Shown here: positions 10,570 through 48,698 of the stretch, in pieces
Position numbering within the stretch: the first letter of the stretch is position 1
How the letters are laid out: each line of letters starts with the position of its first letter
IMG/VR virus record: IMGVR_UViG_3300045988_076491
Source of the DNA: a virus
Strand: one strand, 5' to 3'
Length of the DNA stretch: 57,695 nucleotides
The notes under the pieces: generated by a model
The model's input: only the letters and a program-made list of their open reading frames with translations
What the model was told of the DNA's origin: nothing
The model's database searches: none
Translations under genes and position numbers: made by a program

Positions 10570-11298
10570 ATGAGTACAAAGTACAAATACAGCGCCGCGG
10601 CGAGGCGACGCAGACAAAAAGTAATAATGCAGCGTCGAATAGCTTGCCTTGTAGTTTCCACAGGACTTATAGCTGGCACTGCATTCGCGTCTAATCACTT
10701 TCATCAAAAAGATGTACAAGCTCTAAATGATGAGATTTGTAGATTAAACGCCCAAGTAACGGAGTTGGCTAGTGAGAATCAGGAACTCAGCGCCGCACTG
10801 CCGCAATCCAATGATAAATTAAGATTGTTTGTAGATGACACAGAGGTGCGCGCCGCGGAGCCTACATACTATGACATTCCGTTGAGTAAAGACTTACAAC
10901 TTTACACCTACAACAGATGTGTAGAGTATGGTATTCCTGAGCATTACGAACTCGTGCTTGCCATGATGTGGCAAGAGAGTAACTACACAGCAAATCTTAT
11001 CAGCCCTACTGATGATTATGGTATCATGCAAATCAATTCTCGTAATCATTCCTGGCTAGTAGATTTACTTGGACCTACTAACTTTCTTGATGCTAGTGAC
11101 AACATCAATGCTGGCGTTTATGTCATATCTAAACTTCTTATTAAGTACGGTGATGAGCATAAAGCTCTTATGTCCTACAACATGGGTGAGCATGGCGCAT
11201 CACTTAATTGGCAGGCTGGAAACTACACAAGCAATTATAGTCGCAGCGTCGTGGCGAAGCGTGAAGCAATCAAAGCTAATAACTACAACGCTGATTAA
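10570..11298 (+). CDS. Membrane-anchored lytic transglycosylase (SLT domain)
   Basis: N-terminal RRRRQK plus a TM anchor. SLT motifs MMWQESNY and DYGIMQINS. AAAGGAGG RBS. Confidence 0.8.
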   Translation: MSTKYKYSAAARRRRQKVIMQRRIACLVVSTGLIAGTAFASNHFHQKDVQALNDEICRLNAQVTELASENQELSAALPQSNDKLRLFVDDTEVRAAEPTYYDIPLSKDLQLYTYNRCVEYGIPEHYELVLAMMWQESNYTANLISPTDDYGIMQINSRNHSWLVDLLGPTNFLDASDNINAGVYVISKLLIKYGDEHKALMSYNMGEHGASLNWQAGNYTSNYSRSVVAKREAIKANNYNAD

Positions 11299-11662: not shown

Positions 11663-11728
11663 AATATCATAAGGTGCAGGACACCTAATAGAGACAATAG
11701 TCGAATATAAGAAAGGATGGTAATTACC

Positions 11729-12118
11729 ATGGCAAAGAAATTTGAAGTTGAAGTAACTGTTCCTGAGGGACTGAGCGCTGGTGACAAGTTCACTATCGAA
11801 GTCGAGGCTCCTACTCCTGAGAAGAAACCGAGAGGCCAGCTGGCTGGTATCGCTTTGGAGGATATGACAGATGAGCAGCTTAAGCGTGAGCTTATCAATG
11901 CTAACTCTGTTCTTTACAAAGCTAAGCAGCGTGGTGCTTCTGAGGAAACTATCGCAGCTAACCAGGCACGTGTTGATGCAGCTAAGGCTGAGAAAGCTAA
12001 ACGTGCTGGTACTCCTGCAGAGAGTGAAGCTCCTAACGTTGAGGCAGCTATGGAGGGTAACACTGAAGCAGCTGGCGGAGACGGCGTGTATGACGAGCAG
12101 TCTGCTGCTGAGATGTAA
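11729..12118 (+). CDS. Small charged protein; possible divergent member of the family at 41490 and 44374
   Basis: ATG at 11729 chosen (GAAAGGA RBS). Segment TDEQLKRELINANSVLYKAKQRG resembles TAEQL...IRNVQSKKSIMKSK in the 41490 protein. Confidence 0.7.
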   Translation: MAKKFEVEVTVPEGLSAGDKFTIEVEAPTPEKKPRGQLAGIALEDMTDEQLKRELINANSVLYKAKQRGASEETIAANQARVDAAKAEKAKRAGTPAESEAPNVEAAMEGNTEAAGGDGVYDEQSAAEM

Positions 12119-12182
12119 TTTCTCACAGTATGAGGTGTAGTTGTTACACTTCATCAATCGGCGTGTATTCTTAGAATGTTCG

Positions 12183-12260
12183 CCGACTGATAAGAGCTCA
12201 TAAGGTCCTTAGCTATGATGAGACGCAGGACCTCACACAGTATGGGCTCTTATCAGTCGG
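12183..12260 (+). ncRNA. 78-nt perfect-stem hairpin element upstream of the tRNA-Met gene
   Basis: The 15-bp arm ccgactgataagagc (12183-12197) pairs perfectly with gctcttatcagtcgg (12246-12260). An inner 7-bp stem pairs aggtcct with aggacct. Confidence 0.4.
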
Positions 12261-12354
12261 TGAACATCTTCACAGGCTAGTAGCACCGTGGCATATGATT
12301 GAGTGTAGTTCATCCCTACTTCAACACAAGTATATGTCACGGCACTCCTTCTAT

Positions 12355-12428: not shown

Positions 12429-12574
12429 TTATTGTCCTGGCAGACGAAACCAAAGTAAAGGACCGGATGCATGAATGCGTTCATTGGGACATGGCAGTTA
12501 TGAAGCTGGGAAAGCTGTCAATCATGGGGCGTTAGCTCAGTTGGGAAAACATCACAGTAGATTGGAGGTACTAC

Positions 12575-40269: not shown

Positions 40270-40298
40270 ATTATACGCAATTTAGTTCAGTGATATAA
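40270..40298 (-). promoter_or_regulatory. Promoter of the shared late-type family (minus strand)
   Basis: Minus strand reads TTATAT, 17-nt spacer, TATAATATAATTAGGAGGTGATT. 25 nt are identical to 45561-45585. Confidence 0.6.
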
Positions 40299-40340
40299 CA
40301 TCAGTTGAATTAAATATATTACATTACTTGACGTTAGTAT

Positions 40341-40405
40341 AAAATACGTTAAGATACTTGTTACGAGTTGTTTTCCTTAACTTTCTAGACATCTTAACGT
40401 ATTTT
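40341..40405. repeat. Perfect 15-bp inverted repeat AAAATACGTTAAGAT / ATCTTAACGTATTTT enclosing TTAAC-type units (locus B, left arm)
   Basis: Arms at 40341-40355 and 40391-40405. TTAAC at 40377 and 40394, with a degenerate unit between them. Confidence 0.85.
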
Positions 40406-40535
40406 TGAGGCCACTCAATAAGTATATATGATATTTAGTATAAAAATATTTTTGAGTACTAATTTGATATTATATCAGTGGTAGTATAAAAAATTGTTGA
40501 GGCGTCGCATAGATTATGATGATATAAAAAAATAC

Positions 40536-40582
40536 GTTAAAATGTTAAGATTGTTAAGATTGTTAAAAAGTTAAAAAGTTGA
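40536..40582 (+). repeat. Array of six GTTAA(G/A)A-type units at an 8-9 bp period (locus B, right arm)
   Basis: GTTAA/GTTGA begin at 40536, 40544, 40553, 40562, 40570 and 40578. Confidence 0.85.
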
Positions 40583-40788
40583 ATAAACTATGAAGGTCAA
40601 GATGTCTGTACTGCTGTGCCGCTGCGTATATATCTACTAGCTTATTAGAATAGAACTAATAATTAAAGTCAAATCAAAAACCAATATTTGGGCTTTTTTC
40701 AATATATAAAATATATCCTATATATATACTTATTTTTTTCAAAATTTGATTGGAAAGAAGGAACATGAAGTCTTCTGAATCTTTGTAG

Positions 40789-40817
40789 GTTTAACACGTC
40801 CGTGATATCCATATAAT
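40789..40817 (+). promoter_or_regulatory. Possible promoter reading into the GC-rich island
   Basis: TATAAT at 40812-40817 with TTTAAC/TTAACA 15-16 nt upstream. The -35 is weak. Confidence 0.3.
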
Positions 40818-40859
40818 TATACAGCACCGTGATGAGAATGGTCTGTAGAAAATCCGCTA

Positions 40860-41430
40860 GGCTTGACGTCGCTCGGGGTCGCTGCGGCGACGAGTTCAGT
40901 GGAAGTCTTATAGTTCAACACTAGTCTTTTTAAGCCAAACAAGCCTCTGCACGGATATAGAATACTCTGACATACAGCGTCGCGGCGTCCCTGGGCTGAT
41001 ACAGACTGAAGGATTGTAGATACACAGGCAGTGAGTCACAGTGCCACCCGGCCGCGGCTCTACTCCTTAAAAGAAGTGCAGCCACAGTCAGACGAGGCAA
41101 GGGTTTTAGCAGCTGCGGAGCAGCGGCGCATGGTCGCAGCGGCGCTATTACGACTAGACCAGCACGGATGCCAGGCTGAGCCTATTTTGTGCAGCGCCGC
41201 CGCGACATTGACTGGCCATGACTGTGGAGGGTTTTAGCCGCCGCATCCCGGCCTCCGTACGGCCGGAGCTGACGTCAGTTCTACAAGCTAGTAGATTACA
41301 GCTGGTCCAATCCAACCCCGCACCACGGTGGCCCAGGCCCACTTGCTTACGCTGAACTTGACTTCCACAAGCTAGTAGATGTCCCGGCCAGGCGGCGCTT
41401 GAGCCAGGCTGCACCAAAGGGCATATCAAA
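40860..41430 (+). ncRNA. GC-rich non-coding island A' (candidate structured RNA or protein-binding array)
   Basis: No RBS-preceded ORF. 38/60 G+C in 41101-41160 by hand count. Contains two GGGTTTTAGC, two GCTAGTAGAT and the palindrome CTGACGTCAG (41269-41278). Confidence 0.35.
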
Positions 41431-41460
41431 GCCCAGCTGGCTGACAAGACCAGCTGGGCT
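41430..41460 (-). terminator. Terminator of the 41490 gene (minus strand)
   Basis: Stem agcccagctgg, 9-nt loop, stem ccagctgggct. The minus-strand tail is UUUGAUAU. Confidence 0.6.
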
Positions 41461-41489
41461 TCAATTGAAAGTGAGTATTCAGTTGTATG

Positions 41490-42248
41490 TTATCCAAGCA
41501 TTTCTTTAATCTGTGCAAGCAGCGCTTTGCTGTCTTTTGCATTCATGTGCTCAAGGTCGACGTCTGCGAGCTTCTCAGTTAATGCGTCCTTGGTCTCATC
41601 AACCTTCACAACCTGTGTACGACCTGTAGAAACTCTGATTGCCTTGAGCTGCTCTTCAGCTACGAGCAATGCCTGCCAACGTGGGTCCTCTTCACTGAAG
41701 TCAGCTTTTGACTTCATGATAGACTTCTTGGACTGAACGTTGCGGATTTCCTTCTTAAGTCTGTCCTGGTCCTCTTTGAGCTCTTCAAGCTGCTCAGCAG
41801 TAAAATCTACTGAACCAGACATGCGGCGTGCACCACCTGCGGACTTAACCTTGCCAGTAGCCTTTCTGATAAGGTTCTCAGCAATCGCACCAGCCATCAT
41901 ACTCTTGTAGTTATCCATTGTCATGGCCTTGCTCTTTGCACGAGAACGCTTAGACTGCTGACTCTTCAACATACCATCAACAGTTGCTTCTTCAAGCTCC
42001 TTGATGAACTCAACATCTACAGTGTCATAGTCAATCAACTTTGCAAGCAGTGCATCCATTGCGTTGTGGTCATGCTTTGAAGCTTCGAAGTCTTCACGGT
42101 ACTCATCAAGGTTGTCATTCAACTTCTTGATGCACTCAGCAACAAGCTCATTTGCAACAGTTGTAAGCTGTGCAGTACCTGCAAGATTTCTTGCGTTTGT
42201 AGTTGTTTCATTGTTTTCAGTTGTGTTGAACATTTCGTTAATAGACAT
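41490..42248 (-). CDS. 252-aa charged helical protein; paralogue family with a duplicated QSK(K/R) basic motif
   Basis: ATG at 42248 (AAGGAG RBS). Motifs MLKSQQSKRSRAKSK and IRNVQSKKSIMKSK. Alignable with the 44374 protein. Confidence 0.75.
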   Translation of the reverse strand: MSINEMFNTTENNETTTNARNLAGTAQLTTVANELVAECIKKLNDNLDEYREDFEASKHDHNAMDALLAKLIDYDTVDVEFIKELEEATVDGMLKSQQSKRSRAKSKAMTMDNYKSMMAGAIAENLIRKATGKVKSAGGARRMSGSVDFTAEQLEELKEDQDRLKKEIRNVQSKKSIMKSKADFSEEDPRWQALLVAEEQLKAIRVSTGRTQVVKVDETKDALTEKLADVDLEHMNAKDSKALLAQIKEMLG

Positions 42249-42320
42249 AGTAGTCTCCTTTCTGTCCGCGTCATCCACGCGGCTGCCACACTTTGCAGTG
42301 GCCTGCGTATTTGGTTAAGC

Positions 42321-42520
42321 TTTATTTCCTTAACTCTATACATATTATATCATGAATTTTTGCGGCTGTACATATGTTTTGTAAATTCAATGTGGTCACT
42401 GTACAGTCTTTATTCAATTTTGTATAACTGCTAGAATCAAGTACTTATTTCTTAACTCTATAGATATTATACTATGGAACTTTGCAGTTGTACATATGTT
42501 CTTCAAATTCAATACAGTGG
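42321..42520 (-). repeat. Tandem ~80-bp duplication, each copy carrying a minus-strand promoter (units 42321-42400 and 42444-42520)
   Basis: Both units contain cttaactctata.atattata and gtacatatgtt. The minus-strand -10 elements are TGATATAAT (42344-42352) and TAGTATAAT (42466-42474). Confidence 0.7.
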
Positions 42521-42540
42521 CTGCACCAACTATTTGTAAC

Positions 42541-42830
42541 TGAGTGAGGCGGCGAGGTGGCGCAGCCTTGTCAGGTCAAGCTAAGGTTTTAGCCGTCGTG
42601 GCATAGCCAAGTCCGACTAGGGTTTTAGCGACTGCTGTGTTGCACTGTTGAGTTGAGACTGCAGCAGTCAGGTCCAGCGCTGCCAGGCTGAGGCTGGGTT
42701 TTAGCCGCAGTGGTAAAGCGCAGTCTTGCTGCGGCTGCACGGATTGCTCACGCTGCATCGGGCTGCAGGCTAGTAGATAGCCGACGGCCGCCCGGCTGAG
42801 GCTGAACTGTGGTTGGTGCAGCAGTTAAAA
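42541..42830 (+). other. GC-rich non-coding island B
   Basis: Three (G/A)GGTTTTAGC copies (42584, 42620, 42696), GCTAGTAGAT (42769) and GCTGAGGCTGAACTGT (42795). Lies between divergent promoters. Confidence 0.5.
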
Positions 42831-42865
42831 ATATTTCTGAAACTGACACCAAACTGCAAGATATT

Positions 42866-42874
42866 TGATATAAT
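42866..42874 (+). promoter_or_regulatory. Extended -10 promoter TGATATAAT of cassette 1
   Basis: Part of a ~55-bp block (aaaaatatttctgaaactga...tgatataata) repeated at 43475-43525. Confidence 0.6.
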
Positions 42875-42920
42875 ATAATTGTAAGAAATAATAAAGACAG
42901 TATGAAAGTGAGGTACAACT

Positions 42921-43292
42921 ATGAACAACCTAAAAACAATCGAAAGTGCTATTCAAAGGCTCAAGGCCATGTATGACTGTAACTATGAATGCATGGATGC
43001 AGATGACAGTGGCGACTTACTGACAACTATTTATGAGCTTGAACAAATGAAGAGAGACTTACTACATGATGACTACATTAAGAAAGTTACAGACTTCAGA
43101 GACCACGTGGTATCTACAATGCCAGAGTCAACTGAAAAAGAAGATGAGCACAGCCTAAAGGCTTGGGAAGACTTCTATGGACTGAAGTGGACAATTAGTT
43201 TTGCAGGCAAAGAAGTAACTCTTGACAATGAGGCTGGTACATGGCAACCAATTGTTGACATGCTTACTGATTATCTTGACAATTATCTTTAA
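42921..43292 (+). CDS. 123-aa acidic hypothetical protein (cassette 1)
   Basis: GAAAGTGAGG RBS; D/E-rich; has its own promoter and terminator. Confidence 0.75.
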   Translation: MNNLKTIESAIQRLKAMYDCNYECMDADDSGDLLTTIYELEQMKRDLLHDDYIKKVTDFRDHVVSTMPESTEKEDEHSLKAWEDFYGLKWTISFAGKEVTLDNEAGTWQPIVDMLTDYLDNYL

Positions 43293-43300
43293 GAGTAAGT

Positions 43301-43331
43301 ACACAGCAGTTATCTGCTGTGTATTTCTTTG
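43301..43331 (+). terminator. Terminator of cassette 1
   Basis: Stem acacagcag, loop ttat, stem ctgctgtgt, followed by atttctttg. Confidence 0.75.
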
Positions 43332-43470
43332 CCTTGAAGTGCAGCTACTGCATTGTCAAGCCATGACTGGGTTTTAGCCGCCGTGGCCTGAGGCCACTAA
43401 GCTGAGGCTGTCCACATGCTGGTAGATAGCCTTGCACTGACTAGCTGAGGCTGAACTGTATTTGATGCAG
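43332..43470 (+). other. GC-rich non-coding island C
   Basis: GGGTTTTAGCCGCCGTGGC (43369), GCTGGTAGAT (43418) and GCTGAGGCTGAACTGT (43444). Confidence 0.5.
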
Positions 43471-43513
43471 TCATAAAAATATTTCTGAAACTGATAACAA
43501 ACTGCAATAGATA

Positions 43514-43522
43514 TGATATAAT
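43514..43522 (+). promoter_or_regulatory. Extended -10 promoter TGATATAAT of cassette 2
   Basis: Homologous to the promoter block of cassette 1. Confidence 0.6.
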
Positions 43523-43561
43523 ATATATATAGAATAAAGAAAAGAAAGTGAGGATATTAAA

Positions 43562-43882
43562 ATGAAAGATGAATTGTGTACTATTGCTGGAGAAGACCTG
43601 GTTGGCCTCATCGAGAAGATAGCCTATGAAGACTATGCTAAGGCCTATAGAAAGCTGCATAGGGCTGGACTTAATCGTAGACCTACATATGAAGACTTCA
43701 TTCGTAGCTGTCCGGCTTTTGTAGCATTTCCATCAATACCTGATGATGCATGGCATCAGGCCTATGAATTCATAGCCGACTTGTTTGATGACAATGAAAA
43801 GAATGGAACGCCTTGCGATGAAGAGGCGAAGTTCAACCAGAATGTAGCAGAGCTACTGATGATGTTCAACAACAGAAAATAA
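43562..43882 (+). CDS. 106-aa acidic hypothetical protein (cassette 2)
   Basis: GAAAGTGAGG RBS; has its own promoter and terminator. Confidence 0.75.
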   Translation: MKDELCTIAGEDLVGLIEKIAYEDYAKAYRKLHRAGLNRRPTYEDFIRSCPAFVAFPSIPDDAWHQAYEFIADLFDDNEKNGTPCDEEAKFNQNVAELLMMFNNRK

Positions 43883-43890
43883 TAGCAGGT

Positions 43891-43921
43891 ACACGGCAAG
43901 CAATTGCCGTGTATTTCTTTG
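43891..43921 (+). terminator. Terminator of cassette 2
   Basis: Stem acacggcaa, loop gcaa, stem ttgccgtgt, followed by atttctttg. Same frame as the cassette 1 terminator but with compensatory stem changes. Confidence 0.75.
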
Positions 43922-44170
43922 CCTGCAGATGCAGCCTTGCATTATCAAGCCAGGACTGGGTTTTAGCGGCCGTGGCACGCCATTATCAAGCCAGAGCTGG
44001 GTTTTAGCGGCCGGGTGCAGCTTGCCAAGCTGAGGCTGGGTTTTAGCGGCCGTGGCACGCCTACTGCATGGCCGCGGCTGAGCTGCGTACGCAGCAGAAC
44101 GTACGTTCCACTGGCTAGTAGATAGCCTAGCGCAGTCCGGCTGTGGCTGAGCTGCAGCTGTGGCGATGTG
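43922..44170 (+). other. GC-rich non-coding island D
   Basis: Three GGGTTTTAGCGGCCG copies (43958, 43999, 44038). Palindromes gctgcgtacgcagc and gaacgtacgttc. GCTAGTAGAT at 44114. Confidence 0.5.
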
Positions 44171-44200
44171 CAAAAGAAAAGACCGGTCTTTCGACCGGTC
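44171..44200 (-). terminator. Minus-strand terminator
   Basis: Stem gaccggtc, loop tttc, stem gaccggtc. The minus strand follows with UUUUCUUUUG. Confidence 0.65.
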
Positions 44201-44207
44201 ATGTATT

Positions 44208-44315
44208 TTATACTAGAATAAAGTCCTTTTCATATCTCCTTATATCAGTAGCATCAATTGTTATTGTACCTACATACAGGCCTGAATTCTTTTCATATAC
44301 ATTGAATGTTCTCAC
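44208..44315 (-). CDS. 35-aa micro-ORF between two terminators (tentative)
   Basis: GTG start 9 nt after AGGAG. Peptide (M)RTFNVYEKNSGLYVGTITIDATDIRRYEKDFILV. Confidence 0.3.
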   Translation of the reverse strand: MRTFNVYEKNSGLYVGTITIDATDIRRYEKDFILV

Positions 44316-44340
44316 TTTTATTATCTCCTTTCATTTAAGA

Positions 44341-44368
44341 AGGGACCTGGCCTGTGGACCAGGTCCCT
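44341..44368 (-). terminator. Terminator of the 44374 gene
   Basis: Stem agggacctgg, 8-nt loop, stem ccaggtccct, immediately after the stop codon. Confidence 0.65.
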
Positions 44369-44373
44369 CATTC

Positions 44374-44889
44374 TTACATCAGACTTTTCAGAAGTTCTAC
44401 AACCTTTTCTTGACTCAGATTTCCTGAACTTTCAATTGTATCAATGATGGTCTGTACATCTGTTTTTCTAACATATTCATTATCAACAGGTTTTGTAGAT
44501 TCTCTTCTTTCAATCAGCATCTTTTCAATCTCACAGGCTTTTCTGTACTCATCATTATCACCCTCAACATCTGTCAACCATTTGGTAAGTGTCTTTTTTG
44601 ATTGAATACTTCTAATGGCCTTTATGGTCTCATCATAATCTAACTGGTCAACATCTTCCTGTGTGTACATTGTAACTGGCTTTTCTTTAGGGTCAAGTAA
44701 CTGTCTAACCTCTTTTAAGACCTGCTCATATTTTACTACCTCAGTCATCTCTTCCTCATAGGTCTTCTTGCCCTTCTGCTTTTTAAGGCGGCACTTCAGA
44801 GACTGCACCCTTTTAAGCTCCTTTGCTACAAGGTCCACATTGTTCTCGAACTTTTCTGCAACCTTTTCGATTTCTTTCATGTTTGTCAT
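44374..44889 (-). CDS. 171-aa charged helical protein; paralogue of the 41490 product
   Basis: ATG at 44889 (GAAAGTGAGG RBS). Motifs LKRVQSLKCRLKKQKG and IRSIQSKKTLTKW. Confidence 0.75.
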   Translation of the reverse strand: MTNMKEIEKVAEKFENNVDLVAKELKRVQSLKCRLKKQKGKKTYEEEMTEVVKYEQVLKEVRQLLDPKEKPVTMYTQEDVDQLDYDETIKAIRSIQSKKTLTKWLTDVEGDNDEYRKACEIEKMLIERRESTKPVDNEYVRKTDVQTIIDTIESSGNLSQEKVVELLKSLM

Positions 44890-44950
44890 TTTGATTTCCT
44901 CACTTTCAATATTATTTTTGTAAGTCATTCATTACTCACTTACAATATAA

Positions 44951-44979
44951 ATTATATCGTGGATTTTGGAATTTGTAAA
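44951..44979 (-). promoter_or_regulatory. Sigma-70-type promoter (minus strand)
   Basis: Minus strand reads TTTACA (44974-44979), 17-nt spacer, TATAAT (44951-44956). Confidence 0.65.
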
Positions 44980-45453
44980 TAGTTTCTTTCAAAAAAGTTG
45001 CACAAAGAACTATACAATTTCCTATGCAATTTGACAGAACATTTGTTCTGTGCATACCGCCCAAAAATTGCGCCGGATTCTGTGCAGTTTTGCCGGCCCC
45101 TTAGCGCGGTGGCGCTTGCACAAGTTAACTTTGCCAAAAATAAACAAATAAAAGAAGATGCAAAGTCTAGCATAACTGCAGCATCACAGCCTAAATGAGA
45201 CTCAGCAGCCCGACGCCACGTAGCCGCCCTTCGCTGCTTAGACAAATAGACAATCCAAAGATTACAGGAAGCTATAGTAGTTACAGAAGCGACCTTTTCC
45301 GGCAAAAAATCTAGAGGAATTGTAGATAAACTGGAAAGAAAATAGTTATTTTGTTTATTATATGTGTTAATATTGTAAAAATTAACTTGCAGCATGTACT
45401 TGGTACTTGTAACGAGCTCGTGAGCATCCCAGAAGAGATTTTATAAGGTGTAT

Positions 45454-45586: not shown

Positions 45587-46411
45587 ATGATGGGAGACCA
45601 GGAGCTTATGCGTCACGGTGACATTGCAGAACCAGTACTAATGGTGCATTGCCCAAGATGTGGTCAATACAAACCAGCTCATCATATTGACAAACACCTC
45701 TGCGTTGACTGTGCGAATGCTGAGAATACGCGTGTGACTTACTACAGGCAACACCAGGATGATTGGATAGCGAATGCCAAGGAGAATGGTATTGACCTTT
45801 GGTCGCAGCAGCCCGGCGAGACACAGTGGGAGTTCACAGTCTGGACAGCTTATAGAGACTCGTATCCAGGAAAGAAGCCTACATATGGTGATGTAGCTCG
45901 TCAGCTTAATACTACCTACAACTCTGTCAAGAAGATTGCACAGCGTTGGTCATTCCAGTTGCGTATGCAGGCCTGGATGAAGTATTGTGATGACATCACG
46001 CTGCAGCAGCGCAGGCAAGAAATCTTGGATATGAATAAGGACCATGTAGATATGGCGGCTAGGTTGCGCTCGAAGCTCAGCACCGCTATTGACATGATTG
46101 ACCCGATGTCGCTTAAGCCTGGTGAGATTGCTTCCCTTGCTAAGTTAGCAGCAGACATGGAACGCAAAGCTCGTACTGACACTATTGCTCAGGAAGAGAT
46201 GCGTCGCGATGCTATGGTTGATACAGAGAACCCAGACATCAAGAAGAGTCCTACAAAGCAGGCTGACTTGAGTGAGGTAGTCGGAATACTCCTTAAGGCA
46301 GGGGCACTTGGTGACATCACACAGATTGGTGTTCGCCAGACCAAGACAACCGAAGTCGCACTTGTAGATGCTAATGGCAACTCATCTAGTGTGACAATGG
46401 ATGATGAGTAA
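45587..46411 (+). CDS. terS: Terminase small subunit candidate (N-terminal Zn ribbon plus HTH)
   Basis: CPRCGQYKP...CVDC; HTH-like TYGDVARQLNTTYNSVKKIAQRW. First gene of the packaging cluster. Confidence 0.6.
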   Translation: MMGDQELMRHGDIAEPVLMVHCPRCGQYKPAHHIDKHLCVDCANAENTRVTYYRQHQDDWIANAKENGIDLWSQQPGETQWEFTVWTAYRDSYPGKKPTYGDVARQLNTTYNSVKKIAQRWSFQLRMQAWMKYCDDITLQQRRQEILDMNKDHVDMAARLRSKLSTAIDMIDPMSLKPGEIASLAKLAADMERKARTDTIAQEEMRRDAMVDTENPDIKKSPTKQADLSEVVGILLKAGALGDITQIGVRQTKTTEVALVDANGNSSSVTMDDE

Positions 46412-46427: not shown

Positions 46428-47000
46428 ATGGGCAAGAGTCGTAACACAAGGATGTACGGCACTTATCCGTCTGAGACATTTAAGGAGCACGGTCAACTCT
46501 TTCGTCGCTGTGTATTTTGTGGCGAGGTAAAGCCTATTACTGACTTTCATCGTAATGGCACAGATAAGAAAGGCCGTCCTGAATGGAGACAGGACTGTAA
46601 GTGTTGTTACAATATCCGTAGGAAAGAAAACAGAACAAAGAAAAAGCATTCTGACTTTATTGGAGGTCAGAAGCGCCGTGGTGAGGAAAATCCAGAGTTC
46701 ACTCATCAAGAGTGGAAAGAAGCATTGATTTTCTTCGGTGGAGAGTGTGCTTATTGTGGATGCACTCCGCGTAAGGGTCAGAGAATGACTCGTGACCATC
46801 TTGAGCCGGTTAGCGAGGGTGGACGTACTATTCAGAGTAACATCGTACCGGCATGCCAGTCATGTAACAGCTCTAAAGGTGCTGAGGACTTTAAAGACTG
46901 GTTTATGAAGCAGCCATTCTTTAGTCAGGAGAGACTTAACAGAATATTTAAGTGGCGCACTATTATCCGACAGGTAGAAGGAGGTGTTAAGAATGATTAG
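46428..47000 (+). CDS. HNH endonuclease with an N-terminal Zn ribbon
   Basis: CAYCG...TRDHLEPVSEGG...NIVPACQSCNSSKG; N-terminal CVFCGEVKPITDF...CKCCY. Confidence 0.85.
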   Translation: MGKSRNTRMYGTYPSETFKEHGQLFRRCVFCGEVKPITDFHRNGTDKKGRPEWRQDCKCCYNIRRKENRTKKKHSDFIGGQKRRGEENPEFTHQEWKEALIFFGGECAYCGCTPRKGQRMTRDHLEPVSEGGRTIQSNIVPACQSCNSSKGAEDFKDWFMKQPFFSQERLNRIFKWRTIIRQVEGGVKND

Positions 47001-47330: not shown

Positions 47331-48698
47331 ATGAGTATAGACTTGAATGGAATTGACCTGCAACAGCTGCAGGGAATTTTAACGCCACGTCTGACTAAGT
47401 ATATCCCTTATGACCCTACACCTAAACAGCGAGCTTTCTTACTTATGAATGATACGAAAGAGATTTTGTATGGTGGAGCAGCCGGTGGAGGTAAGTCTGT
47501 AGCACAGCTTATGGCAGCGTTACAGTATGTAGATATACCAGGCTACTCCGCTATACTTTTTCGTAAGACATATGCTGATTTATCATTGCCTGGTGCATTG
47601 ATAGATATGTCTAAACAATGGCTGATGCCTTTTGTTGATAGTAAGGAAGTTAAGTGGTCTGAAAAGGAAAAGCAGTATGTTTTTCCTTCAGGTGCCACAC
47701 TGAACTTTGGTTATCTTGAGTCAGCTAACGATTGTTATCGTTACCAAGGTGCTGAATTTCAGTATATAGGAATGGATGAGGTTACGCATATAGACCCTAC
47801 TAACTACAGGTATCTATTCTCACGTTTACGTAAGCCAAAGACATTGCAAGTACCTTTAAGATTTAGAGCTACAGCAAACCCTGGTGGACAATTTGGTGAA
47901 TACTATTACCAAAGATTCTTTGTTGAGGGTAAAGATGCTGGGCGTATTTTTATAGGTGCAGGTATTGATGATAACCCATATCTTGATGCTGAAGCTTATA
48001 AAGAATCACTTGCAGAGTTGGACCCTATAGAACGTGAGCGTTTATTGAATGGTAACTGGGAAATTAAAGCATCTGGTGATATGCTTAATAGGCACTGGTT
48101 TACTATAGTACCTGCATCTGAAGTTCCTGCTGCTGCTAGAAGGGTACGATACTGGGATATGGCGTCTACAGACCCTAAGAAGCGCAAAGGTAAGAATAAG
48201 CGAGAGCCAGACTGGACAGTTGGATTTAAGCTTGCGCACTACCAGGGTATGTATTGGATTGAGGACATTATACGAGAACAAAAAATGCCTGGCGATTTGG
48301 AGAAGCTTTTAGGCGAAACAGCACGAGCAGATGGATATGACGTAGCAATACGTATGGAGGAAGAGCCAGGTTCTTCTGGTAAGATTACTACTGACCACTA
48401 TGCAAGGCATGTACTGCAAGGGTATGACTTTATTGGCGTATCCTCTACAGGTTCTAAGGTTGAAAGAGCTAGAACAGCATCAGCAGCAGCACAAAGGGGT
48501 AATGTGCACATTGTACAAGGATGCAGAAACATTCTACCTTTTCTTGATGAGGCTGACTTATTTCCTTATGGTATTCATGATGATACAATAGATGGCTTCT
48601 CTGGAGCTTTCAATTACTTTAGAGGGCCTACACTTAATAGGGTTCCATCTGGTATAAAGAAAACAGGTGGTTCTTACTGGACAAAATTTAGGAGGTGA
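47331..48698 (+). CDS. terL: Terminase large subunit
   Basis: Walker A GGAAGGGKS; Walker B YIGMDEV; C-terminal nuclease-like region with conserved D residues. Confidence 0.9.
   Translation: MSIDLNGIDLQQLQGILTPRLTKYIPYDPTPKQRAFLLMNDTKEILYGGAAGGGKSVAQLMAALQYVDIPGYSAILFRKTYADLSLPGALIDMSKQWLMPFVDSKEVKWSEKEKQYVFPSGATLNFGYLESANDCYRYQGAEFQYIGMDEVTHIDPTNYRYLFSRLRKPKTLQVPLRFRATANPGGQFGEYYYQRFFVEGKDAGRIFIGAGIDDNPYLDAEAYKESLAELDPIERERLLNGNWEIKASGDMLNRHWFTIVPASEVPAAARRVRYWDMASTDPKKRKGKNKREPDWTVGFKLAHYQGMYWIEDIIREQKMPGDLEKLLGETARADGYDVAIRMEEEPGSSGKITTDHYARHVLQGYDFIGVSSTGSKVERARTASAAAQRGNVHIVQGCRNILPFLDEADLFPYGIHDDTIDGFSGAFNYFRGPTLNRVPSGIKKTGGSYWTKFRR

What the first reader, a model, noticed from the sequence alone, without database searches (positions are those of the whole stretch)
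41101..45115. Strand-oriented GC-rich motif families confined to five non-coding islands upstream of the packaging genes
GGGTTTTAGC (one copy is AGGTTTTAGC) occurs nine times, at 41101, 41229, 42584, 42620, 42696, 43369, 43958, 43999 and 44038. Every copy is on the plus strand. It usually sits inside a longer unit, YCAAGCC-N5-CTGGGTTTTAGC(C/G)GCCGTGGC. A degenerate tenth copy (TTAGCGCGGTGGCGC) lies at 45101. GCTAGTAGAT (one copy is GCTGGTAGAT) occurs five times, at 41287, 41371, 42769, 43418 and 44114, again only on the plus strand. GCTGAGGCTG-type units recur as well. I noticed none of these motifs in coding DNA, although a partial GCTAGTAGC-ACCGTGGCA occurs at 12276 next to the tRNA unit. 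The islands (40860-41430, 42541-42830, 43332-43470, 43922-44170, about 45050-45240) are roughly 60% GC in a roughly 40% GC genome and lie between terminators and promoters. Strict orientation with no coding potential suggests a directional process. Three options are: (a) structured RNA modules, since several units can fold as a ~10-bp stem closing a GGUUUUAG loop, and some of those pairs are G:U and so exist only in the plus-strand RNA; (b) TerS recognition or cos-proximal sites, because terS-HNH-terL lie just downstream; (c) Chi-like protection sites, since several copies contain AGCGG, the Bacillus subtilis Chi. I know of no described element with this signature.
Basis: partly seen in the sequence, partly recalled or inferred. 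Interest (0 to 1): 0.85.

Follow-up and report, generated by a model that had tools for sequence, protein, structure and literature searches.

The report
One-strand GC-rich repeat arrays before terminase
An uncultured 57-kb phage and its relatives carry non-coding GC-rich arrays of a conserved ~25-base motif, always on one strand just upstream of the DNA-packaging genes; no known element matches them, and they look more like a directional DNA signal (Chi-like) than a folded RNA.

Summary
The main observation is real. GGGTTTTAGC sits at all nine stated positions, plus strand only, in islands of 53-61% GC in a 41% GC genome.

The arrays recur in about 25 related viral contigs. TTTTAGC occurs 105 times on the array strand and never on the other. 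The arrays always lie 1-6 kb upstream of terS, on the terS strand.

A unit is a conserved linear block (CAAGCYGNRGCTG-GGTTTTAGC-SGC) plus a variable GC-rich spacer, repeating every 34-48 nt. Copy number differs between close relatives.

no covariation.
- **Other helices:** no tested helix, alifold run or strand comparison supports a conserved plus-strand RNA fold.
- **Known families:** Rfam, CRISPR-repeat mimicry, antitoxin mimicry and boxA all fail.
- **AGCGG:** present in only about 40% of units.
- **GCTAGTAGAT:** two more exact copies exist, one on the minus strand.

Three of the four islands lie outside every predicted sigma-70 transcript.

My best reading, at low confidence (0.3), is a directional DNA signal read by a translocating enzyme at the free end left upstream of terS. 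This resembles the Chi clusters at the right end of some cos phages. A transcribed RNA array remains a serious rival. Function is unproven.

The parts
40830..41430 (+). Island A. It is the largest island, with two GGGTTTTAGC units (41101, 41229), two CTAGTAGAT motifs (41288, 41372), TTGCTTACGC (41343), and a 14-nt inverted repeat GTCGCAGCGGCGCT (41133-41146) / AGCGCCGCCGCGAC (41193-41206).
   Evidence: (I18). The block order is conserved in L002, L005, L006, L116 and L137. GC is 57.4%.
40791..40820 (+). Promoter-like site in front of island A (TTAACA-18-AATTAT; a perfect TATAAT lies at 40812-40817). Island A is the only island with a plausible plus-strand promoter of its own.
   Evidence: A TAATTAT(A)-like box recurs at the same place in relatives.
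41430..41465 (.). Hairpin AGCCCAGCTGG-N9-CCAGCTGGGCT, a bidirectional terminator between island A and the 3' end of the minus-strand gene 41490-42278.
   Evidence: Conserved in relatives.
42541..42830 (+). Island B. It has three units (cores at 42584, 42620, 42696) followed by the 3' module TTGCTCACGC (42744), CTAGTAGAT (42770) and GGCTGAGGCTGAACTG (42794). It lies between the two minus-strand promoters of gene 41490-42278 and the plus-strand cassette promoter.
   Evidence: Orthologues are aligned. GC is 59.0%.
43332..43470 (+). Island C, the minimal island. It has one unit (core at 43369), then AAGCTGAGGCTG + TCCACATGCTGGTAGATAGCC, then AGCTGAGGCTGAACTG. It sits between terminator 43297-43326 and promoter 43494-43522.
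   Evidence: The orthologous island has three units in L001, L003 and L004.
43922..44170 (+). Island D. It has three tandem units (cores at 43958, 43999, 44038; spacing 41 and 39 nt), then CTAGTAGATAGCC (44115) and GGCTGTGGCTGAGCTGCAGCTG (44139-44160).
   Evidence: GC is 61.0%. L001 has two units here and L003 three.
43297..43326 (+). Intrinsic terminator of cassette gene 42921-43292, immediately followed by island C. A paralogous hairpin with a T-run at about 43890-43920 follows gene 43562-43882 and precedes island D.
   Evidence: (D10, 75% identical copies).
44181..44200 (.). Bidirectional terminator GACCGGTC-N4-GACCGGTC that closes island D against the minus-strand unit of gene 44374-44928.
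42865..42892 (+). Cassette promoter downstream of island B. Its paralogue at 43494-43522 lies downstream of island C. Both are part of a 76-nt repeat (42826-42901 and 43474-43549).
   Evidence: D6.
45587..46411 (+). terS. It is followed by an HNH endonuclease (46428-47000) and terL (47331-48698). The arrays are co-oriented with terS and lie upstream of it in every related locus.
45098..45115 (+). It is a separate conserved element in the terS-proximal non-coding stretch and not a member of the array family. It may be part of cos.

Best explanation
The islands are arrays of a directional signal that acts on DNA rather than as a folded RNA.

**What each unit is.** A unit presents a conserved linear block (CAAGCYGNRGCTG-GGTTTTAGC-SGC) on the top strand. 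That is the strand whose 3' end points toward terS. The variable GC-rich sequence between blocks is filler.

**Proposed mechanism.** When terminase cuts the concatemer next to terS and packages rightward, it leaves a free double-strand end on the upstream side. The same end is probably the last packaged and the first injected. A helicase-nuclease of the RecBCD/AddAB kind, or another enzyme that tracks along DNA, would enter at that end. It would meet 9 to about 20 copies of the signal from their 3' side within the first 1.5-4.5 kb, and would be switched from degradation to recombination or repair, as at Chi.

**What is shown:**
- the motif family and its absolute strand polarity;
- its fixed position and orientation relative to terS across the phage family;
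- its exclusion from predicted transcripts;
- flexible unit spacing;
- the absence of a conserved RNA structure.

**What is inferred:**
- that the action is on DNA;
- that the genome end or cos site lies between gene 44374-44928 and terS;
- that the reader of the signal is a translocating nuclease.
For: **1. Polarity.**
- GGTTTTAGC is 9/0 in the window.
- In related loci it is 8/0, 9/0, 8/0, 8/0, 16/0 and 10/0.
- TTTTAGC is 105 top / 0 bottom over 16 loci.

**2. Position.**
- In all ~20 loci that hold terS, the arrays are 1-6 kb upstream of it on its strand.
- The neighbouring 262-aa gene flips orientation in L147-L152 without the arrays flipping.

**3. Transcription.**
- Islands B, C and D lie outside every predicted sigma-70 unit.
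- They sit behind terminators, upstream of the local promoters, or between divergent promoters.
- They occupy convergent, divergent and tandem intergenic gaps alike.

**4. A linear motif rather than a structure.**
- No covariation appeared in any tested helix.
- alifold z was -1.4 on the plus strand and -1.5 on the minus strand.
- Spacers fold barely better than shuffles, on both strands.

**5. Spacing.** Units repeat at 35-36, 39-42 or 45-48 nt, which is not phased with the helix. This suits a scanning reader, not cooperative binding to duplex DNA.

**6. Copy number.** It varies between phages whose flanking proteins are 92-94% identical: 1 versus 3 units in island C, and 3 versus 2 in island D.

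**7. Precedent.** Cos phage LLS has 20 of 23 Chi sites on the top strand, concentrated at the right end. Phage MD8 has 32/0, and P1 has similar clusters near its terminal repeats. The published rationale is that the right end is the one open to RecBCD after terminase cuts (PMC12315714).

**8. Composition.** The block is G/T-rich and contains GCTGG-type strings (GCTGGG is 62 top / 8 bottom).
Against: - Known Chi sites are 5-8 nt and sit inside genes. Here a ~25-nt block is conserved and confined to dedicated non-coding GC-rich islands. Chi alone does not explain this.
- The other conserved pieces (CTAGTAGAT, TTGCTYACGC, the GC-rich filler) are unexplained.
- AGCGG, the B. subtilis Chi, is present in only about 40% of units.
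- The phage encodes a RecE-like exonuclease. In lambdoid phages a Rec module goes with few Chi sites (PMC12315714).
- The host, its Chi sequence and the physical genome ends are all unknown.
- Island A does have a promoter-like site and a terminator, so at least that island may be transcribed.
- Self-complementarity is above mononucleotide shuffles (z about -2 on both strands), so some folding of a single strand, DNA or RNA, is not excluded.
Confidence: 0.3

Rival explanations
1. The islands are transcribed on the plus strand, and the tandem units act as RNA. They could be a sponge or decoy that presents many copies of a single-stranded GGGUUUUAGC motif to a host or phage RNA-binding protein or RNase. 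Alternatively they could be cis-acting modules that make RNA polymerase arriving from upstream read through the many terminators of this region, working like nut or put sites. Each island lies before the next terminator and upstream of the local promoter.
For: - GC-rich islands in an AT-rich genome are typical of structured RNA.
- The orientation matches nearly all genes.
- Island A has a promoter-like site and a terminator.
- Purines are favoured at -7 to -4 of the upstream block, which could pair with UUUU through G.U or A-U.
- RNAalifold on island B gives 12 pairs with a compensatory change and a covariation term of 3.57 on the plus strand against 0.10 on the minus strand.
- The plus strand folds more stably in 40 of 43 islands.
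Against: - No sigma-70 promoter lies upstream of B, C or D, which sit behind terminators or between divergent promoters.
- No Rfam match.
- No covariation in four explicit helix tests.
- alifold z is not significant and is equal on both strands.
- MFE z-scores are equal on both strands; the plus-strand energy advantage reflects base composition.
- The G.U:A.C ratio is not above the shuffled ratio.
- The boxA consensus GYTCTTTAANA, with its critical C4, is not matched.
- terS has its own strongly conserved promoter-like TATAAT, so read-through from upstream is not required.
Confidence: 0.25
2. The units are single-strand initiation (ssi-like) priming or replisome signals on the lagging-strand template next to the replication origin. 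The phage's own 989-aa primase would read them once the rightward fork exposes the plus strand.
For: - An origin-like AT-rich region (26% GC) with GTTAAGAT iterons lies immediately left of island A. Relatives have lineage-specific iterons at the same place.
- The phage encodes a primase, a helicase and a PolA-type polymerase.
- The signals are strand-specific, about 40 nt long, and some carry a nearby hairpin, as in plasmid ssi signals (my own knowledge of RSF1010 ssiA/ssiB).
- The lack of a G.U preference fits DNA rather than RNA hairpins.
Against: - Hairpins in the spacers are only marginally above chance and have no fixed position.
- Twenty-odd priming signals packed into 3 kb and absent from the other 54 kb have no precedent.
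- The origin assignment is itself an inference.
Confidence: 0.1
3. The arrays are binding sites on duplex DNA for a phage protein: an early-gene regulator, TerS, or one of the conserved flanking proteins 41490-42278 and 44374-44928.
For: - The architecture is direct repeats with a conserved block and a variable spacer.
- The arrays lie next to early promoters and packaging genes.
- The core changes along with divergence of the flanking protein: GGGTTTTAGC where identity is 61% or more (also in L139 at 58% and L120 at 49%), TGTTTTAGC/GCTTTTAGC at 52-57%, and GCTTTTATGC in other lineages at 48-57%.
Against: - Absolute polarity across 3-5 separate clusters per genome is not something a duplex-binding regulator needs.
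- Spacing of 36, 41 or 46 nt breaks helical phasing.
- Two of the four islands are not next to a downstream promoter.
- The flanking proteins are all-helical with no recognisable DNA-binding fold or family.
Confidence: 0.1
4. The islands are mainly recombination scaffolds or selfish repeats. Conserved intergenic modules (terminator, island, promoter) flank small variable early genes and drive cassette shuffling, as proposed for PeSL elements of T4-type phages. Unit number drifts by slippage.
For: - The promoter and terminator flanks are themselves repeated (D6 at 80%, D10 at 75%).
- Cassette content differs between close relatives while the islands persist.
- Unit number varies.
- One terminator-promoter junction in L001 has no island, so islands are optional.
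- The phage has a RecE-like exonuclease.
Against: - This does not explain a 9-nt core that is invariant in more than 100 copies, nor the block conserved down to about 50% protein identity.
- It does not explain the GC-richness or the fixed relation to terS.
- It is compatible with any of the other functions rather than an alternative to them.
Confidence: 0.1
5. The units mimic a host RNA array, either CRISPR repeats (RNA anti-CRISPR) or a type III antitoxin such as ToxI or CptI, to disarm a defence system.
For: - The units are tandem and 34-48 nt long, with copy-number variation.
- TCYAC-N6-GTAGAT superficially resembles the 3' end of a Cas12a repeat, and GTTTTAG the start of a type II repeat (my own knowledge).
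Against: - A scan of 185,579 species' genomes for two cores 38-68 nt apart found no CRISPR array or toxin-linked array with this unit. The only true matches were three small phage-like contigs (L064, L074, L077). The other hits were unrelated repeats.
- No Rfam CRISPR-DR or ToxI hit even at E<=10.
- Units are not uniform in length or sequence, unlike antitoxin repeats.
- GTAGAT is common genome-wide as the Val-Asp codon pair.
Confidence: 0.03

Closest known systems
Terminally clustered Chi sites of cos phages (E. coli phage LLS, P. aeruginosa phage MD8; also P1), PMC12315714
   Same: Both are many copies of a G-rich motif, all or nearly all on the top strand. Both concentrate at the genome end opposite the terminase genes, which is the end left open after terminase cuts. 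Copy number is high relative to genome size.
   Different: - Chi is 8 nt and embedded in genes. Here a ~25-nt block sits in dedicated non-coding GC-rich tandem arrays together with extra conserved motifs.
- Those phages lack a Rec module. This phage has a RecE-like exonuclease.
- No cognate nuclease or host is known here.
PeSL mobile regulatory cassettes of T4-type phages (Arbiol et al. 2010; cited from my own knowledge)
   Same: Both are repeated intergenic modules (promoter plus stem-loop or terminator) that flank small, variable early genes in a hyperplastic region.
   Different: PeSLs are AT-rich promoter and stem-loop units. They have no GC-rich tandem arrays, no conserved 25-nt block, and no fixed relation to the packaging genes.
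nut/boxA and put processive antitermination RNA elements
   Same: Both are polar, cis-acting and placed ahead of terminators. boxA is a linear, protein-read motif and so shows no covariation.
   Different: - The core does not match GYTCTTTAANA, and the critical C4 is absent.
- The elements lie upstream of, not downstream of, the local promoters.
- There is no put-like conserved fold.
Plasmid single-strand initiation signals (ssiA/ssiB of RSF1010; G4-type sites)
   Same: Both are strand-specific units of about 40 nt that combine a conserved single-stranded stretch with a hairpin. Both lie next to an iteron plus AT-rich origin and are read by an element-encoded primase.
   Different: ssi signals occur once or twice per replicon, not 9-20 times. 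Their hairpins are fixed, whereas here hairpins are inconsistent.

Membership tests
Chi (RecBCD/AddAB hotspot) sites | All copies are on the strand whose 3' end is at the DNA end the nuclease enters, and they cluster near that end. | tested here: met
   9/0 in the window and 105/0 family-wide. The arrays are upstream of terS on its strand in all ~20 loci. That the end lies next to terS is an inference.
Chi (RecBCD/AddAB hotspot) sites | A short (5-8 nt) sequence recognised by the host helicase-nuclease, over-represented and skewed in the host chromosome. | not testable with these tools
   The position after AGC is C 54%, G 40%, A 7%.
Chi (RecBCD/AddAB hotspot) sites | In phages, Chi abundance goes with absence of the phage's own recombination module. 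| tested here: not met
   A RecE-like exonuclease is present (phrog_434, E = 2.5e-82). The rule is taken from PMC12315714.
Structured non-coding RNA (any Rfam family) | A match to a curated covariance model. | tested here: not met
   Only two tRNAs reach gathering score. Nothing is credible at E<=10 in 40700-45400.
Structured non-coding RNA (new family) | Helices supported by compensatory changes beyond chance, on one strand. | tested here: not met
   Searches found none. alifold z was -1.4 (plus) and -1.5 (minus). MFE z was -2.10 and -1.93.
Structured non-coding RNA (new family) | Its own promoter and terminator. | tested here: inconclusive
   Island A has both. B, C and D have no upstream plus-strand promoter. 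No expression data are available.
CRISPR repeat mimic (RNA anti-CRISPR) or mini-array | The unit matches the repeat of a CRISPR array in bacterial genomes. | tested here: not met
   The CRISPR arrays among the listed hits (109 stretches found) that contain the 10-mer have unrelated repeats. There is no CRISPR-DR hit in Rfam.
Type III antitoxin (ToxI/CptI-like) mimic | Near-identical tandem repeats of fixed length, with a host counterpart next to a toxN-like gene. | tested here: not met
   Units are 34-48 nt with variable spacers. No host array was found.
boxA / nut antitermination site | A match to the boxA consensus GYTCTTTAANA, including C4. | tested here: not met
   GGGTTTTAGCS matches 5 of 10 specified positions and has T at position 4. 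The GCTTTTATGC variant is one T short.
Iterons or cooperative duplex-DNA binding arrays | Spacing phased with the DNA helix (multiples of about 10.5 bp). | tested here: not met
   Spacing peaks at 35-36, 39-42 and 45-48 nt, in steps of about 5.
PeSL-like mobile regulatory cassettes | Repeated promoter and terminator modules flanking variable small early genes. | tested here: met
   D6 and D10 repeats. Cassette content differs among relatives. Sequence relationship to T4 PeSLs was not tested.

The most novel reading that the evidence does not exclude
The arrays are a new class of polar, non-coding tandem element specific to this abundant family of uncultured phages. It would be a dedicated multi-copy landing strip with a ~25-nt recognition block, read on single-stranded nucleic acid by a still unidentified host or phage machine: a nuclease, a primase or an RNA-binding factor. 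It would not be a member of Chi, boxA, ssi, CRISPR or antitoxin families.
Probability: 0.35. Interest if true: 0.8.

Novelty: new variant of a known kind. Interest (0 to 1): 0.6.

Why it matters
- **How common the family is.** The gene flanking the islands has 1,557 homologues in public metagenomes. Neither a DNA search with the island region nor a protein search with its conserved flanking gene finds a relative among GenBank phage records.
- **If the arrays are Chi-like.** They would show that virulent phages can carry dedicated non-coding cassettes to manage host helicase-nucleases at the exposed genome end. The core sequence would then point directly at the unknown recognition sequence of the host enzyme.
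- **If the arrays are RNA.** They would be a new multi-copy protein-titrating or antitermination element.
- **Either way.** The 9-nt core (105 top-strand copies, none on the bottom strand) is a clean, testable handle and a diagnostic marker for this phage family.

Tried and rejected
Pairing equals the composition expectation.
2. **Pairing of the downstream block with the next unit's upstream block.** No antidiagonal signal against partner shuffles.
3. **Pairing of the core with the next unit's GCURRRGCU (seen in RNAfold).**
   - It cannot be tested because the core is invariant.
   - The variants found gave no compensation; an apparent C-G switch was a register artefact.
   - Position -8 is C in 44% of units, opposite an invariant A.
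4. **Mini-hairpin GCUU-GCC-AAGC.** Present in 21 of 151 units, which is the chance rate.
5. **RNAalifold.**
   - The 3' modules gave one invariant 4-bp hairpin.
   - Island B orthologues were not significant on either strand.
6. **Strand asymmetry by G.T versus A.C mismatches and by MFE z-scores.** None beyond base composition.
7. **Hairpins in the spacers.** Marginal, and on both strands.
8. **Rfam at gathering thresholds and at E<=10.** Nothing.
9. **CRISPR or antitoxin mimicry.** The genome scan found only unrelated repeats.
10. **Cas12a-like GTAGAT.**
    - TGTAGAT is the commonest heptamer and TTGTAGAT the commonest octamer genome-wide, because GTA-GAT encodes Val-Asp.
    - The TCCRC/GUAGR 'stem' has a C.A mismatch and is strand-ambiguous (by inspection).
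11. **boxA.** The consensus is not met.
12. **Sigma-54 or sigma-70 promoter inside the unit.** The spacing is wrong, judged by inspecting the consensus.
13. **Function of the flanking proteins.**
    - No Pfam, PHROG or PDB match.
    - The AF2 model is all-helical (pLDDT 76). Foldseek returns only one uncharacterised gut phage protein.
14. **Literature search for the motif string.** Only irrelevant primer hits.
15. **Search for the element in other genomic contexts.** A CTAGTAGATAGYC..GGCTG scan found only family members plus chance hits in coding DNA.
16. **A first MFE script timed out.** It was rerun with mononucleotide shuffles.

Full report
**1. The observation**

There are eight exact copies and one AGGTTTTAGC, all on the plus strand between 41101 and 44047. 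Allowing one mismatch gives 11 matches against 3.2 expected, and no shuffle out of 100 reaches that number. The islands are 53-61% GC in a 41.1% GC genome, and all plus-strand reading frames in them are closed by stop codons.

The second motif is weaker than described. GCTAGTAGAT also occurs exactly at 11055 (+), inside a gene, and at 40632 (-). The 'tenth copy' at 45101 belongs to a different conserved element.

**2. Genome context**

The window is a whole phage genome of virulent type, with almost every gene on the plus strand. It encodes:
- terS, an HNH endonuclease and terL at 45.6-48.7 kb;
- a helicase, ligase, primase, RecE-like exonuclease, NrdD and a PolA-type polymerase.

With terminase placed at the left, as is the convention, the islands occupy the last 4.5 kb. 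They lie between an AT-rich region with iterons (40.25-40.8 kb, 26% GC) and the non-coding gap in front of terS.

**3. Anatomy**

Each island has two parts:
- a variable number of units;
- a 3' module made of TTGCTYACGC, TCCRC-N3-CTAGTAGAT(AGCC) and TCCGGCTGAGGCTG(A/C)ACTG.

A unit is a conserved linear block, G.CAAGCYGNRGCTG|GGTTTTAGC|SGC, followed by a GC-rich spacer of 12-26 nt. Units repeat every 35-36, 39-42 (mode 41) or 45-48 nt.

The upstream block also occurs without the core, in front of the CTAGTAGAT piece and at the end of the island.

**4. Distribution**

Pattern scans and a search with the flanking protein found the same arrays in about 25 IMG/VR contigs of 4.6-62 kb that share the window's gene order where flanking genes are present. 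These are L001-L006, L116, L118, L120, L127, L128, L130, L132, L134, L135, L137, L139, L140, L147-L152, L155 and L160. A single locus can hold up to 16 units.

More distant lineages carry variant cores: TGTTTTAGC, CTGCTTTTAGC/T and GTGCTTTTATGC. They keep the 3' module.

Several searches came back empty or nearly so:
- A scan of one genome for each of 185,579 bacterial and archaeal species returned only three small phage-like contigs with the true unit (L064, L074, L077). The other hits were unrelated repeats or CRISPR arrays that happen to contain the 10-mer.
- There is no relative in GenBank phage records, whether searched with the island-region DNA or with the flanking protein.
- The element was not found in any other genomic context.

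The flanking 253-aa protein has 1,557 metagenomic homologues, so the phage family is common.

**5. Polarity and position**

The core is never on the other strand: 9/0 in the window, and TTTTAGC is 105/0 over 16 loci.

In every locus that contains terS, the arrays lie 1-6 kb upstream of it on the same strand, with the 184-aa gene antisense in between. The 262-aa gene is inverted in L147-L152, yet the arrays keep their orientation.

Within the window the islands fill a convergent gap (A and D), a divergent gap (B) and a tandem gap (C). Polarity is therefore tied to the genome axis, not to the neighbouring genes.

**6. Is it a folded RNA?**

Its eight proposed pairs are complementary at the rate expected from base composition. 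Other tests gave the same answer:
- Pairing between the downstream block and the next unit's upstream block shows no signal.
- A small GCUU/AAGC hairpin occurs at the chance rate.
- RNAalifold on 16 copies of the 3' module finds only an invariant 4-bp hairpin.
- Six orthologous copies of island B give 85 predicted pairs, 12 with a compensatory change. The energy is only 1.4 standard deviations below column-shuffled alignments, and the minus strand gives 1.5.
- Across 43 islands the MFE z-score is -2.10 on the plus strand and -1.93 on the minus strand. The plus strand's lower absolute energy reflects its G+T richness.
- G.T mismatches do not exceed A.C mismatches beyond the shuffled ratio.
- Spacers are barely more foldable than shuffles, on both strands.

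RNAfold does pair GGUUUUAGC with the next GCURRRGCU through G.U pairs, and purines are favoured there. The invariant core prevents a covariation test, and position -8 is C in 44% of units, opposite an invariant A.

In short, the islands hold more self-complementarity than chance, but I found no conserved, strand-specific structure.

**7. Are the islands transcribed?**

Only island A has a promoter-like site (a perfect TATAAT at 40812-40817) and a downstream terminator. Both are conserved in relatives.
- Island C starts right after the terminator of gene 42921-43292 and ends before the next promoter.
- Island D starts after the paralogous terminator and ends at a bidirectional terminator.
- Island B lies between the duplicated minus-strand promoters and the plus-strand cassette promoter.

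B, C and D are thus outside all predicted sigma-70 transcripts on both strands. This is a prediction from sequence, not a measurement.

**8. Known families ruled out**

| Family | Result |
|---|---|
| Rfam | No match |
| CRISPR-repeat or antitoxin mimic | No host array; units are not uniform |
| Cas12a-like GTAGAT | Explained by Val-Asp codon usage and an ambiguous stem |
| boxA | Consensus GYTCTTTAANA not met |
| Phased duplex-binding arrays | Spacing is not phased with the helix |

The flanking proteins gave no functional clue.

**9. Best explanation**

What remains is a linear motif, indifferent to spacing, absolutely polar along the genome axis, kept out of transcripts, and multiplied next to the packaging genes. 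That suggests a reader that tracks along nucleic acid.

The closest documented case is the clustering of Chi on the top strand at the right end of cos phages: LLS with 20 of 23 sites, MD8 with 32/0, and P1. The published explanation is that the right end is the one open to RecBCD after terminase cuts (PMC12315714). The islands have the same position and polarity.

I therefore rank a Chi-like DNA signal first, at 0.3. The main weaknesses are:
- the conserved block is three to five times longer than any known Chi;
- it lives in dedicated GC-rich non-coding arrays with extra motifs;
- AGCGG is not conserved;
- the phage has a RecE-like exonuclease;
- the host and the genome ends are unknown.

**10. 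Rivals**

| Rival | Confidence | Main point |
|---|---|---|
| Plus-strand RNA array (protein sponge, or nut/put-like read-through module) | 0.25 | Transcription cannot be excluded and island A looks like a gene |
| ssi-like priming signals beside the origin-like region | 0.1 | Strand-specific ~40-nt units next to iterons |
| Duplex-DNA binding sites | 0.1 | Direct-repeat architecture near promoters |
| PeSL-like recombination cassettes | 0.1 | Compatible with any of the others |
| Mimicry of host arrays | 0.03 | Largely refuted here |

**11. Verdict**

This is a real, family-wide and undescribed element. The proposed RNA stem is rejected. The Chi idea survives in general form but not through AGCGG. 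Function is unproven, and section 'decisive next steps' lists the experiments that would settle it.

Noticed in passing
window 40290-40600: An AT-rich region (26% GC) carries direct and inverted copies of GTTAAGAT / ATCTTAAC, including the tandem run GTTAAAATGTTAAGATTGTTAAGATTGTTAAAAAGTTAAAAAGTT at 40536-40580. Relatives have different short iterons at the same place: TTCAACAT in L153, TTTTCGCTAC in L157, ACGTCAAAA in L146 and AATGTGACA in L155. This looks like a replication origin with lineage-specific initiator sites.
   Followed up: partly
window 45034-45051 and 45078-45086: A perfect palindrome ACAGAAC-ATTT-GTTCTGT lies just downstream of the strongest promoter in the region (44979-44951, minus strand, 11 of 12 matches). 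TTCTGTGCA is repeated nearby. The GTTCTGTGCA half-site is conserved in most relatives, which suggests an operator.
   Followed up: partly
window 45060-45115: CCCAAAAATTGCGCC...CCCTTAGCGCGGTGGCGC is conserved in L004, L006 and L134, and its 3' part also in L005, in the non-coding gap before terS. It is a candidate for cos or a terminase recognition site, and it is distinct from the array motif.
   Followed up: partly
window 42326-42404 and 42448-42526: A 79-nt duplication (77% identity) gives gene 41490-42278 two tandem minus-strand promoters (TGTACA-17-TATAAT).
   Followed up: no
window 41490-42278 (-), 44374-44928 (-), possibly 11717-12118 (+): The two conserved minus-strand proteins flanking the islands share a ~60-aa segment (...IRNVQSKKS... 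/ ...IRSIQSKKT...; BLASTP E = 0.001). The small protein at 11717-12118 has a similar-looking stretch by eye. None has a Pfam, PHROG or PDB match. The AF2 model of the first is all-helical.
   Followed up: partly
window 12182-12261: A 16-nt inverted repeat, GCCGACTGATAAGAGC (12182-12197) / GCTCTTATCAGTCGGT (12246-12261), encloses an inner hairpin (GGTCC...GGACC) just upstream of tRNA-Met. It could be a structured RNA linked to the tRNA genes. There is no Rfam match.
   Followed up: no
window 12527-12570: GGGCGTTAGCTCAGTTGGGAAAACATCACAGTAGATTGGAGG looks like the 5' half (acceptor stem and D arm) of a tRNA, between tRNA-Met and tRNA-Arg. Neither ARAGORN nor Rfam calls it. It may be a decayed tRNA gene.
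   Followed up: no
whole window: TGTAGAT (42 plus / 19 minus) is the commonest heptamer in the genome and TTGTAGAT (23 plus / 13 minus) the commonest octamer. Nearly all copies are inside genes, with GTA-GAT read as Val-Asp. This is a codon-pair effect, not a regulatory motif.
   Followed up: yes
L132 (minus strand), about 10790-10900 in reverse-complement coordinates: A related phage carries three tandem copies of TTTTGGTCATTTTTGGCAGCGCCGCCGCACACA. This is another lineage-specific repeat array in the same general region.
   Followed up: no
L120 7955-8410: One relative has, between terS and the HNH gene, an ORF whose translation resembles by eye a response-regulator receiver domain (not checked against any family library). 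The window has no counterpart.
   Followed up: no
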